Assembly (NCBI RefSeq): GCF_003018115.1
Contig: NZ_CP027457.1
DNA: 64,000 bases
DNA from: Escherichia coli
Lineage (GTDB): Bacteria; Pseudomonadota; Gammaproteobacteria; Enterobacterales; Enterobacteriaceae
Reading direction: 5' to 3' (one strand)
Part shown: piece after piece, positions 27,756 through 30,700 of the stretch
Numbering within the stretch: the stretch's first letter is position 1
Layout: each line of letters starts with the position of its first letter
Program-made: the position numbers

Positions 27756-30700
27756 TAAGTGAACTGGCGCAGAATCGTCTGGCTATTGGCGTTGGTTACT
27801 CAGCCAACGCTTGCGGAGGAGACGCCGTTACAACTGGCGCTGCGCGGTGCGCAGCACGATCAACTGTATCAGCTGTCGTCATCAGGCGTGACCAAAGTCT
27901 CAGCATTACCTGACTCGCTCACCACGCCGTTAGGGAGTTTGTGGAAACTGTATGTTTACGCCTGGCTGGAGGATACCCATCAACCGGAGCAGCCCTACCA
28001 GTGTCGCGGAAACTCCCCGGAAGAGGTTTATTGTTGTCAGGCTGGGGAGAGCATAACGCGCGATACCGCGCTGGTACGTTCCTGTGGGCTCTATTTTGCG
28101 CCGCAGCGGTTGCATATTGGCGCAGATGTGTGGGGGCAATACTGGCAACAGCGTCAGGCACCTGCGTGGTTAGCGTCTCTTACTACGCTGAAGCCAGAAA
28201 CCTCGGTAACGGTTAAATCGCTGCTTGATTCATTAGCGACGTTACCTGCGCAAAACAAAGCTCAGGAAGTCTTACTGGATGTGGTGCTGGACGAGGCGAA
28301 AATCGGTGTCGCATCCATGCTCGGTAGTCGGGTTCGGGTGAAAACCTGGAGCTGGTTTGCCGATGATAAACAGGAAATCCGTCAGGGTGGTTTTGCCGGC
28401 TGGTTAACCGATGGTACACCGCTGTGGGTTACTGGCAGTGGCACCAGCAAAACGGTACTGACCCGTTATGCGACGGTGCTTAATCGGGTTTTGCCAGTGC
28501 CGACACAAGTTGCCAGTGGGCAATGTGTAGAGGTGGAGCTATTTGCCCGCTATCCGCTGAAGAAAATCACAGCGGAAAAGAGTACGACGGCAGTAAAACC
28601 CGGCGTACTTAATGGGCGCTATCGTGTGACATTTGCCAATGGTAACCACATTACGTTTGTCAGCCACGGTGAGACGACCTTACTGAGCGAAAAGGGCAAA
28701 CTGAAATTGCAGTCGCATCTCGATCGTGAAGAGTACGTTGCCAGAGTTCTGGATCGCGAGGCGAAAAGTACGCCCCCTGAGGCAGCGAAAGCCATGACCG
28801 TGGCGATTCGCACTTTTTTACAGCAAAACGCCAATCGGGAAGGCGATTGCCTGACCATCCCTGACAGCAGCGCCACGCAGCGTGTTTCGGCTTCGCCAGC
28901 TACCACGGGGGCGCGAACGATGACCGCCTGGACGCAGGATCTCATCTATGCGGGCGATCCGGTTCATTATCACGGCAGTCGCGCTACCGAAGGGACGCTT
29001 TCCTGGCGGCAAGCCATGGCCCAGGCGGGGCAGGGAGAGCGTTACGACCAGATACTCGCGTTTGCTTATCCCGACAACAGCCTTAGCCGCTGGGGAGCGC
29101 CACGCTCAACCTGTCAGTTATTACCCAAAGCGAAAGCCTGGCTGGCGAAAAAAATGCCGCAGTGGCGGCGTATATTACAAGGCGAGACGGGGTACAACGA
29201 ACCAGACGTGTTTGCGGTCTGTCGTTTAGTCTCAGGTTTCCCCTATACCGATCGGCAGCAGAAACGGCTGTTTATTCGTAACTTCTTTACGCTTCAGGAT
29301 CGGCTGGATTTAACCCATGAGTATCTGCACCTGGCCTTTGATGGTTATCCCACCGGGCTTGATGAGAACTATATCGAAACGCTGACCCGACAATTATTAA
29401 TGGACTAATGCTATGCGAAAGATTTTTCTTCCGTTGTTACTGGTGGCGCTTTCGCCTGTCGCTCACAGTGAAGGTGTGCAGGAAGTCGAGATTGACGCAC
29501 CGCTCTCTGGCTGGCATCCGGTAGAGGGCGAAGATGCCAGTTTTTCACAATCGATCAATTACCCGGCGTCGTCCGTCAACATGGCAGATGATCAAAATAT
29601 CTCAGCGCAGATCCGCGGCAAAATAAAGAATTATGCTGCGGCGGGTAAAGTTCAGCAGGGCCGGCTGGTGGTCAACGGTGCCAGTATGCCGCAGAGAATT
29701 GAATCCGATGGTTCATTTGCACGCCCTTATATTTTCACTGAAGGCAGCAACAGCGTGCAGGTCATCAGCCCGGATGGGCAAAGCCGACAAAAAATGCAGT
29801 TTTACTCAACGCCGGGCGCTGGAGTGATTCGCGCACGTTTACGGCTGGTTCTCTCGTGGGATACGGACAATACCGACCTCGATCTTCACGTTGTCACGCC
29901 CGATGGCGAACACGCCTGGTACGGTAACACCGTGCTGAAAAACAGTGGTGCACTGGATATGGATGTCACGACGGGGTACGGACCCGAGATTTTCGCCATG
30001 CCAGCGCCAGTTCACGGACGCTATCAGGTGTATATCAACTACTATGGCGGACGCAGCGAAACGGAATTAACCAGCGCCCAACTGACGCTGATCACCGATG
30101 AAGGATCGGTCAATGAGAAACAGGAAACATTTATTGTACCGATGCGTAATGCTGGCGAGCTGACGCTGGTGAAAAGTTTTGACTGGTGATCCATCCCTTC
30201 ACACAACCTGGCTCTTTCTTTTTTCAGATAAGACTGCTGGGCGATCTGCCGACGCCAGGATATAACCATTAACAAGCGTCGGCAGATTGGTCATTTCTTA
30301 TTTTTCGTACTGAGAACTGTCCATTTACTCCGGCTTTCCTGGTTAAGGCAATGGTTTCTAAGCGATACGCATTATTGCAATGGTGACAGAACATTGCGGT
30401 AACACGCTTTTACCGCTACCTTAACCACACTCCATCGGTCACCTGAGGCGGAGCTTCGCCCCTTTGAAATACCTTGCTTCTTTTCGTACAACCCTGAAAG
30501 CCTCGCGCTACATGTTCAGAGCATTGGCGTTAGTGCTCTGGCTGTTGATTGCTTTTTCATCCGTTTTTTACATCGTTAATGCGTTACATCAGCGAGAATC
30601 GGAAATTCGTCAGGAATTTAATCTGAGTTCCGATCAGGCTCAGCGCTTTATTCAACGCACCTCTGATGTGATGAAAGAGCTGAAGTACATCGCCGAAAAT

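What the first reader, a model, noticed from the sequence alone, without database searches (positions are those of the whole stretch)
30190..30463. ato locus absent between yfaP and rcsC, with a 12-bp perfect inverted repeat at the junction
In K-12 atoS-atoC-atoDAEB (about 8 kb) lies between rcsC and yfaP. Here only 274 bp separate yfaP from rcsC, and it contains a perfect 12-bp inverted repeat (ATCTGCCGACGC ... GCGTCGGCAGAT, 30244-30287). This is either the ancestral state with a terminator, or a deletion scar. It implies the strain lacks the ato short-chain fatty acid genes, and rcsC has different upstream sequence from K-12.
Basis: partly seen in the sequence, partly recalled or inferred. 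Interest (0 to 1): 0.3.

Follow-up and report, generated by a model that had tools for sequence, protein, structure and literature searches.

The report
Old ato deletion scar upstream of rcsC
The short gap between yfaP and rcsC is the decayed stump left when an ancestor lost the ato short-chain fatty-acid genes, a common and already known E. coli variant, and the neat 12-bp inverted repeat sits inside the dead atoS fragment.

Summary
yfaP ends at 30189 and rcsC starts at 30464. The 274-bp spacer has no ato genes, and a perfect 12-bp inverted repeat lies at 30244-30255 / 30276-30287.

- 30212-30308 is a decayed remnant of the 5' end of atoS, 71-78% identical to intact atoS. Its start codon is lost and 52 nt are deleted internally.
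- 30309-30387 is a strongly diverged distal part of the atoS-rcsC intergenic region.
- 30388-30463 is identical to K-12.

The same junction occurs in 1537 of 5426 complete E. coli genomes, including O157:H7, O104:H4, O111:H8 and E24377A. Escherichia whittamii has it too, with the same internal gaps, so the deletion is old.

The repeat is not at the breakpoint. It lies in the atoS remnant. All ten arm differences from intact atoS make or keep a base pair, and the left arm overwrites a universally conserved AtoS motif. The likeliest origin is a quasipalindrome template-switch mutation. A role as terminator is possible but unsupported, because E. whittamii, an O145 lineage and an IS3 insertion all break the hairpin without compensation.

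ato presence/absence in E. coli is already documented. Low interest.

The parts
29413..30189 (+). yfaP, last gene of the yfaS-yfaQ-yfaP (alpha-2-macroglobulin) gene row. The haplotypes stop being alignable 1 nt after its stop codon.
   Evidence: ORF list. RefSeq annotation of F9792 and K-12 derivative. 100% match to K-12 up to 30190.
30191..30211 (.). Junction filler: 21 nt that replace 7,174 bp of the K-12-type allele (rest of atoS, atoC, atoDAEB and the yfaP/atoB terminator). Not alignable to ato sequence. May be further decayed atoS codons about 51-55.
   Evidence: Alignment A1. Only 38% identity to K-12 and 52% to E. whittamii in these columns. Length bookkeeping: 7490 - 274 = 7174 - 21 + 52 + 11.
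30212..30308 (-). Decayed remnant of the 5' end of atoS (sense on the minus strand). It covers codons about 23-50 and about 1-5, with a 52-nt internal deletion removing codons about 6-22. The start codon equivalent 30306-30308 reads ACG. A stop codon is in frame.
   Evidence: blastn 78% over 69 nt, E = 6e-11. Alignment A1, 71% over 83 columns. The translated remnant aligns with AtoS MVIVPTLTIGYIVETEGRSAVLSEKEKKLSAVV.
30220..30239 (.). 20-nt block TTTTTCAGATAAGACTGCTG, invariant in all scars (E. coli, E. whittamii) and all intact atoS sequences. It encodes the AVLSEK part of AtoS.
   Evidence: Conservation line of alignment A1.
30244..30255 (+). Left arm of the perfect 12-bp inverted repeat. 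It corresponds to AtoS codons 36-40 (ETEGR), here reading ASADR on the minus strand. It has 6 differences from intact atoS.
30276..30287 (+). Right arm of the inverted repeat. It corresponds to AtoS codons 26-29 (VPTL, here LPTL). It has 4 differences from intact atoS, all conservative or synonymous.
30288..30310 (+). T-rich stretch after the hairpin (TGGTCATTTCTTATTTTTCGTAC). This is the only feature that could make the hairpin a weak terminator for yfaP transcripts.
   Evidence: Sequence. The terminator scan did not call it.
30309..30387 (.). Diverged distal part of the former atoS-rcsC intergenic region: about 57% identical to K-12, with an 11-nt deletion.
30388..30463 (+). Proximal rcsC upstream region, identical to K-12. 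It includes a conserved 7-bp hairpin at 30396-30416.
30464..33313 (+). rcsC (TTG start, 949 aa).

Best explanation
The 274-bp yfaP-rcsC spacer is the scar of an old deletion of about 7.2 kb. The deletion removed atoS from about codon 50 onward, atoC, atoDAEB and the yfaP/atoB terminator.

What remains is a dead 5' stump of atoS and the former atoS-rcsC intergenic region. The rcsC-proximal 76 bp are intact and the rest has decayed.

This ato-less haplotype segregates in E. coli at about 28% of complete genomes. Escherichia whittamii has it with the same internal gaps, so it predates the E. coli radiation.

The perfect 12-bp inverted repeat is not a recombination site at the breakpoint. It lies in the atoS stump, where intact atoS has only a weak quasi-palindrome. 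It most likely arose by a template-switch (quasipalindrome correction) event that overwrote the left arm with the complement of the right arm.

Shown: homology, breakpoints, distribution, and the direction of the changes. Inferred: the template-switch mechanism, and that the hairpin has little or no present function.
For: Scar nature:
- Window 30215-30282 matches atoS nt about 79-147 at 78% (E = 6e-11). Window 30341-30463 matches the atoS-rcsC intergenic region.
- A 9-sequence alignment shows collinearity with 52-nt and 11-nt gaps.
- Identity is 71% and 57% in the scar-specific parts against 99% in the proximal part.
- The translated remnant aligns with the AtoS N-terminus.

Distribution:
- The contiguous junction occurs in 1537 of 5426 genomes. 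The 197-bp scar occurs in 1536-1544. atoDAEB occurs in 3926.
- In an independent collection, 3 of 10 contexts around an identical RcsB have the same 274-bp spacer.

Age:
- E. whittamii L004 has the scar at 89% identity with identical gap pattern. Its flanks are 88-92% identical.

The locus is prone to loss:
- Escherichia sp. MOD1-EC7003 has a different deletion (atoB 3' end fused to atoS 5' 302 nt), and NT1N28 has another.

Repeat origin:
- Intact atoS has 5 of 12 Watson-Crick pairs in this register; the scar has 12 of 12.
- All 10 arm differences create or keep a pair. None of 3,000,000 random sets of 10 substitutions reached 12 pairs.
- The left arm replaces ETEGR, which is invariant in AtoS homologues down to about 54% identity. 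The right-arm changes are conservative or synonymous.
- Hairpin energy is -25.8 kcal/mol in the scar against -11.4 in K-12 atoS.
- The mechanism is established in E. coli (PMC7202029).
Against: - Both arms differ from intact atoS (6 and 4 changes). A single template switch therefore needs earlier drift in the right arm.
- Positions flanking the left arm also differ (3 of 7), which templating does not explain.
- K-12 atoS is only a proxy for the ancestor of the remnant.
- The scar is far more diverged from intact atoS (29-43%) than the flanks are between haplotypes (0-3%). This is unexplained. It could mean import from a distant lineage or accelerated or adaptive change.
- The repeat region is identical in 1478 of 1541 scar genomes. 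That is compatible with some constraint.
Confidence: 0.8

Rival explanations
1. The hairpin is a functional, selected element. The deletion removed the yfaP/atoB bidirectional terminator and placed rcsC co-directionally 274 bp behind yfaP. A strong hairpin plus T-rich tail was then favoured as a new terminator or insulator, or as a stabiliser of the yfaP mRNA 3' end.
For: - The K-12 spacer has a canonical A-tract/hairpin/U-tract terminator that is absent here.
- The scar hairpin is strong: -29.7 kcal/mol, z = -4.9.
- It lies 54 nt after the yfaP stop and is followed by a T-rich stretch.
- All arm changes improve pairing.
- The repeat is identical in 96% of scar genomes.
Against: - The loop is 16-20 nt and the first 8 nt after the stem hold only 4 U. 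The terminator scan does not call it.
- E. whittamii has two uncompensated mismatches, and its fold is not better than shuffles (z = -1.15).
- An O145 lineage and strain ESDR8 carry an uncompensated G to C in the left arm. SRY206 carries an IS3 element in the loop.
- No compensatory pair change is seen anywhere.
- No Rfam family matches.
Confidence: 0.2
2. The ato-free spacer is the ancestral arrangement, and the ato cluster was inserted in the K-12 lineage.
For: - Outside Escherichia (Superficieibacter, Citrobacter youngae, Enterobacillus), yfaP is not next to ato or rcsC.
- ato can be mobile, on the LAA island (PMC9729726, PMC13340028).
- The intact and scar haplotypes are very diverged. Re-import of ato into some E. 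coli by recombination therefore remains possible as a secondary event.
Against: - The spacer contains atoS coding sequence and atoS-rcsC intergenic sequence in the right order and orientation. An ato-like cluster was therefore there first.
- E. albertii has the K-12-type yfaP-atoB spacer at 95%.
- Two other independent partial deletions of ato exist at the same place.
Confidence: 0.04
3. The inverted repeat is a footprint or end of a mobile or repeated element (REP/BIME, MITE, IS ends) that caused the deletion.
For: It is a perfect repeat in a junction region. Other perfect repeats in the window look like REP elements.
Against: - The 12-mer occurs only here in the window.
- Both arms and the loop align base for base with atoS codons 26-40.
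- The repeat lies about 35 nt or more inside the remnant, not at the breakpoint.
- There are no flanking direct repeats.
Confidence: 0.02

Closest known systems
atoSC-atoDAEB locus of E. coli K-12 (acetoacetate / short-chain fatty acid utilisation) as an accessory locus
   Same: Same chromosomal position between yfaP and rcsC. Presence/absence among E. coli is documented: prevalence differs by more than 50% between phylogroups A and B1 (PMC9602453). AtoSC is listed as not present in S. dysenteriae 1617, S. flexneri 301 and S. boydii Sb227 (PMC9496106).
   Different: Here only a 97-nt dead stump of atoS survives. The papers I found report gene presence/absence, not the anatomy or age of the scar.
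K-12-specific segments ('K-islands') missing from O157:H7 in the original genome comparisons (my own recollection of Perna 2001 / Hayashi 2001, not checked here)
   Same: O157:H7 genomes carry exactly this junction; the 197-bp scar is 100% identical.
   Different: The variant is not lineage-restricted. It also occurs in B1-type strains (E24377A, O104:H4, O111:H8), the O169:H41 ETEC group and E. whittamii.
Quasipalindrome-associated template-switch mutations (PMC7202029)
   Same: An imperfect inverted repeat is converted to a perfect one by a cluster of changes that all increase complementarity.
   Different: This is inferred from comparison only. Both arms differ from the proxy ancestor. No experimental or polymorphism snapshot of the event exists.
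Rho-independent terminators, such as the yfaP/atoB bidirectional terminator of K-12
   Same: GC-rich stem downstream of a stop codon with T-rich sequence after it.
   Different: The loop is 16-20 nt rather than 3-8, and the U-tract is not adjacent. The hairpin is not conserved in E. whittamii.
LAA pathogenicity island copy of ato genes in LEE-negative STEC (PMC9729726, PMC13340028)
   Same: It shows that an ato-less chromosome locus does not guarantee an ato-less genome. At least 37 genomes have both.
   Different: It is not present in the window. The nearest complete genome has no atoD anywhere.

Membership tests
Deletion scar / pseudogene remnant of atoS | Significant sequence homology to the gene, in syntenic position and orientation | tested here: met
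   78% over 69 nt, E = 6e-11. Collinear with the atoS 5' end and the atoS-rcsC intergenic region.
Deletion scar / pseudogene remnant of atoS | Loss of coding integrity | tested here: met
   Start codon equivalent is ACG. A 52-nt internal deletion is present. ETEGR is replaced by ASADR at residues invariant in homologues. A stop follows about 31 codons.
Deletion scar / pseudogene remnant of atoS | Intact allele exists at the same site in related genomes | tested here: met
   3899-3926 E. coli genomes, E. coli E69, and E. albertii (partial contig).
Rho-independent terminator | GC-rich stem of at least 5 bp | tested here: met
   12 perfect pairs, 14 with extensions, -25.8 kcal/mol.
Rho-independent terminator | Short loop (about 3-8 nt) | tested here: not met
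   20 nt lie between the arms, 16 of them unpaired in the MFE fold.
Rho-independent terminator | U-tract immediately 3' of the stem | tested here: inconclusive
   UGGUCAUUUCUUAUUUUU: T-rich but offset. Not called by the scan.
Rho-independent terminator | Transcripts end there | not testable with these tools
   No transcript 3'-end data available.
Structured functional RNA/DNA element | Pairing kept by compensatory changes in relatives | tested here: not met
   E. whittamii has two uncompensated mismatches. O145 and ESDR8 have one. No covarying pair was seen. No Rfam match.
Quasipalindrome template-switch product | Imperfect inverted repeat in the ancestral sequence | tested here: met
   Intact atoS has 5 Watson-Crick plus G-U pairs of 12 in the same register, and a -11.4 kcal/mol hairpin.
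Quasipalindrome template-switch product | Clustered changes that all raise complementarity | tested here: met
   10 of 10 arm differences. 0 of 3,000,000 random substitution sets reach 12 pairs.
Quasipalindrome template-switch product | Only one arm rewritten | tested here: inconclusive
   The left arm has 6 radical changes. The right arm has 4 conservative ones that could be earlier drift.
REP/BIME or mobile-element end | Multiple copies in the genome / flanking target duplication | tested here: not met
   Unique in the window. No flanking direct repeat.

The most novel reading that the evidence does not exclude
ato presence/absence at this site is an ancient polymorphism, older than the E. 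coli / E. whittamii split and kept in E. coli by selection. After the deletion made rcsC tandem to the yfaS-yfaP operon, a quasi-palindrome in the dead atoS stump was converted into a perfect hairpin. That hairpin now serves in E. coli as a newly born transcription insulator protecting rcsC expression.
Probability: 0.15. Interest if true: 0.4.

Novelty: already known. Interest (0 to 1): 0.17.

Why it matters
Practically, the window's lineage probably cannot use acetoacetate or butyrate through Ato, unless it carries an island-borne copy. It also lacks the AtoSC two-component system. Both are known strain differences.

The added value is modest:
- The either/or question of insertion versus deletion is answered as deletion.
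- The scar turns out to be old and shared with another Escherichia species.
- The repeat is a tidy natural example of directed perfection of a quasi-palindrome in non-functional DNA.
- For anyone studying rcsC regulation, ato-less strains keep the same 76 bp upstream of rcsC but have a co-directional operon 274 bp upstream instead of divergent atoS.

Tried and rejected
- Rfam scan of 29900-30800 at E <= 1: no match.
- Sigma-70 promoter scan of the spacer and of the K-12 atoS-rcsC region: nothing called. The rcsC promoter could not be placed.
- Outgroups beyond Escherichia (Superficieibacter, Citrobacter youngae, Enterobacillus): yfaP is not next to ato or rcsC, so they give no polarity. The genome scan did not return E. 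fergusonii, E. marmotae or E. ruysiae, and the E. albertii contig ends 64 bp after yfaP.
- I searched AtoS N-terminal homologues to see whether the remnant derives from a divergent functional atoS. None is closer to the remnant than K-12 AtoS, and all keep IGYIVETEGRSAVLSEK. The 'divergent xenologous atoS' idea was dropped.
- A look-up of contigs encoding identical RcsB returned only the two E. coli-type arrangements and no new species.
- Comparing conservation of the 52-nt repeat region with the neighbouring 52 nt: the difference is driven by one old SNP in the control region, so it is not a valid test of constraint.
- Elevated divergence next to the junction, as a signature of a deep haplotype: not seen. 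There are 0-9 mismatches per 250 bp on both sides.
- I did not isolate an example genome that has both the scar and ato elsewhere. Only the count argument and the literature support it.
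Full report
**1. Observation**

The window has yfaP (258 aa) at 29413-30189 and rcsC (949 aa, TTG start) at 30464-33313, both on the + strand. RefSeq annotation of the closest complete genome gives the same genes and the same gap. The spacer 30190-30463 is 274 bp.

The repeat finder reports arms 30244-30255 (ATCTGCCGACGC) and 30276-30287 (GCGTCGGCAGAT): 12 nt, 100% complementary, 20 nt apart. The 12-mer occurs nowhere else in the window, even with one mismatch.

Random 64-kb sequences with the same first-order composition contain on average 0.34 such perfect repeats with a 3-60 nt loop. 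That is about 0.0015 expected in 274 bp. The real window has four such loci, and the other three look like REP or terminator hairpins.

**2. Gene order in K-12**

In a K-12 derivative (NEB Turbo, L001) the order is yfaQ, yfaP, atoB, atoE, atoA, atoD, atoC, atoS, rcsC, rcsB, rcsD, ompC. There are 7,490 bp between the yfaP stop and the rcsC start. Nothing in the 64-kb window matches atoB, E, A, D or C. Only a 68-nt stretch matches atoS.

**3. What the spacer is**

Megablast shows K-12-type genomes matching the window up to 30190 and again from 30385/30388. A more sensitive blastn shows that the 197 'private' bases are not foreign:
- 30215-30282 align with the 5' coding part of atoS (78% over 69 nt, E = 6e-11).
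- 30341-30463 align with the atoS-rcsC intergenic region.

I aligned five E. coli scars, the E. whittamii scar and three intact alleles. The whole spacer is collinear with 'atoS 5' end + intergenic region', with a 52-nt gap (atoS codons about 6-22) and an 11-nt gap. The atoS start codon equivalent (30306-30308) reads ACG on the atoS strand.

The conceptual translation of the remnant, MTNLPTLVNGYILASADRPAVLSEKRKSQVV*, aligns with AtoS residues 23-55, MVIVPTLTIGYIVETEGRSAVLSEKEKKLSAVV.

Length bookkeeping closes. 7,174 bp of K-12 (the rest of atoS, atoC, atoDAEB and the yfaP/atoB spacer) are replaced by 21 unalignable bases (30191-30211). Adding the 52-nt and 11-nt internal deletions gives 7490 - 274 = 7216.

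The spacer is therefore a deletion scar. The 'ancestral, never had ato' option is excluded.

**4. How diverged it is**

| Segment | Scar vs intact allele | E. coli scar vs E. whittamii scar |
|---|---|---|
| atoS remnant | 71% | 92% |
| atoS 5' end + distal intergenic part | 57% | 84% |
| 94 columns next to rcsC | 99% | 96% |

The flanks are ordinary. K-12 versus the window shows 1-9 mismatches per 250 bp in yfaP-yfaQ and 0-6 in rcsC, with no peak at the junction. The two haplotype-specific segments therefore look several-fold older than the DNA around them. I could not resolve why; see the last section.

**5. Distribution**

- The contiguous junction (at least 80% of a 1,274-bp probe) occurs in 1537 of 5426 complete E. 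coli genomes. The 197-bp scar occurs in 1536-1544. atoDAEB DNA occurs in 3926.
- Carriers include O157:H7 (197 bp 100% identical), O104:H4, O111:H8, E24377A and the O169:H41 ETEC group.
- In a different collection, 3 of 10 distinct contexts around an identical RcsB show the same 274-bp spacer with a perfect repeat.
- The window's own genome is not in the collection. The best match is 99.4% over 24 kb to O169:H41-type strains such as F9792.
- The literature already treats ato as accessory. Prevalence differs by more than 50% between phylogroups A and B1 (PMC9602453). AtoSC is listed as not present in three Shigella reference strains (PMC9496106).

**6. Is ato elsewhere in the genome?**

This cannot be answered from one window. 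I ran a chimeric probe of the junction plus reverse-complemented atoD. It gave a single place in F9792 and in all 16 other ato-less genomes sampled, so those genomes have no atoD anywhere.

However, 1537 + 3926 exceeds 5426 by 37. At least 37 genomes therefore have both the scar junction and atoDAEB DNA. Two papers place ato genes on the LAA pathogenicity island of LEE-negative STEC (PMC9729726, PMC13340028). I did not isolate an example.

**7. Age**

A scan of one genome per species with YfaP returned the following:
- Escherichia whittamii has the same scar: 89% identity over 171 nt, the same 52-nt and 11-nt gaps, and the same left junction. Its flanks are 88-92% identical.
- E. albertii has a K-12-like yfaP-atoB spacer at 95%. 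The contig ends there.
- 'E. coli' E69 has an intact ato cluster.
- Escherichia sp. MOD1-EC7003 has a different deletion that fuses the last 123 nt of atoB to the first 302 nt of atoS (96% identical to K-12).
- E. coli NT1N28 has yet another partial deletion.

So ato was present ancestrally and has been lost repeatedly at this site. The loss seen in the window predates, or is as old as, the E. coli / E. whittamii divergence. More distant genera with yfaP have neither ato nor rcsC next to it, so they give no polarity.

**8. The inverted repeat**

The repeat is not at the breakpoint, and both arms and the loop align base for base with atoS:
- Right arm: codons 26-29 (VPTL, here LPTL).
- Left arm: codons 36-40 (ETEGR, here ASADR).

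Intact atoS has only a weak quasi-palindrome there: 5 of 12 Watson-Crick pairs in this register and -11.4 kcal/mol. The scar has 12 of 12 pairs and -25.8 kcal/mol.

The arms differ from intact atoS at ten positions, six left and four right. Every one creates or preserves a pair, including two double changes. None of 3,000,000 random sets of ten substitutions produced 12 pairs, and only 15 reached 11.

The segment IGYIVETEGRSAVLSEK is invariant in the AtoS homologues recovered at roughly 60-100% identity. The most divergent ones (46-67%) keep a recognisable version of it. The left-arm changes therefore occurred after inactivation. The right-arm changes are conservative or synonymous.

This asymmetry, together with the all-improving pattern, is what a quasipalindrome template-switch mutation predicts: the left arm is recopied from the right arm. 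The mechanism is established in E. coli (PMC7202029). This is an inference. K-12 atoS is only a proxy for the ancestor, and three of seven positions flanking the left arm also differ, which templating does not explain.

**9. Does the hairpin do anything?**

For a function:
- The deletion removed the canonical bidirectional terminator between yfaP and atoB (sequence).
- It made rcsC co-directional with yfaP.
- The hairpin is strong, with z = -4.9, and is followed by T-rich sequence.
- The 52-nt region around the repeat is identical in 1478 of 1541 scar genomes.

Against a function:
- The loop is 16-20 nt and the U-run is offset. The terminator scan does not call it.
- E. whittamii has two uncompensated mismatches, and its fold is no better than shuffles (z = -1.15).
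- An O145 lineage and strain ESDR8 carry an uncompensated G to C at the position equivalent to 30254. SRY206 has an IS3 element inserted in the loop.
- No compensatory change is seen anywhere, and Rfam has no match.

I rate a selected terminator or insulator role at about 0.2.

**10. rcsC upstream**

The 76 bp before the TTG start are identical to K-12, including a 7-bp hairpin at 30396-30416. Only sequence further upstream differs. No sigma-70 consensus promoter was called in either haplotype, so I cannot say whether the promoter is affected.

**11. Unresolved**

- Why is the scar so much more diverged from intact atoS than the flanks are? Candidate explanations are an old polymorphism with flanks homogenised by recombination, later re-import of ato, or accelerated change.
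- Why has a 20-nt block (30220-30239) stayed invariant in all scars and all intact alleles?

**12. Verdict**

The finding is real and correctly located. It is an ordinary, already documented gene-content polymorphism. The repeat is best read as a by-product of mutation in dead DNA, with a minority chance of a small regulatory role.

Noticed in passing
L006 10784-11535 (Escherichia sp. MOD1-EC7003): An independent, different ato deletion at the same site. The last 123 nt of atoB are fused to the first 302 nt of atoS, which is 96% identical to K-12.
   Followed up: partly
H100, E. coli NT1N28 (NZ_CP075474.1 1594053-1594512): A third deletion type. Only part of atoD remains, next to the DUF2300 (yfaQ) gene.
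   Followed up: no
L027 1261-2489 (E. coli SRY206); equivalent to window about 30265: An IS3-family element is inserted in the loop of the 12-bp inverted repeat.
   Followed up: partly
window 23139-27758: An intact 1539-aa alpha-2-macroglobulin (yfaS) ORF. The K-12 derivative has this gene annotated as a pseudogene with an internal stop.
   Followed up: no
window 30464-31463 vs L011 7912-8911 and L004 11051-12050: The first 1 kb of rcsC is only 87.6% identical to E. coli E69 and to E. whittamii, although the E69 ato genes are 92-98% identical to K-12. The locus is mosaic.
   Followed up: no
window 30396-30416: A 7-bp hairpin GCGGTAACACGCTTTTACCGC upstream of rcsC, present in both haplotypes. 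The scan flags it as terminator-like on the minus strand. Function unknown.
   Followed up: no
window 30220-30239: A 20-nt block TTTTTCAGATAAGACTGCTG is invariant in all scars and all intact atoS sequences, although the surrounding remnant is about 30% diverged.
   Followed up: partly
window 10326-10363, 45230-45260, 62464-62494: Three other perfect inverted repeats of 12 bp or more with short loops. They look like REP or terminator hairpins.
   Followed up: no
E. coli genome collection: At least 37 complete genomes carry both the ato-less junction and atoDAEB DNA elsewhere. This fits the reported LAA-island copy of ato (PMC9729726, PMC13340028).
   Followed up: partly
L024 309-434 (E. coli E8); equivalent to window 30199-30324, minus strand: PGAP annotates a 41-aa 'hypothetical protein' that is simply the atoS remnant read through, because a TAA is CAA in that strain. 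It is an annotation artefact of the scar.
   Followed up: partly
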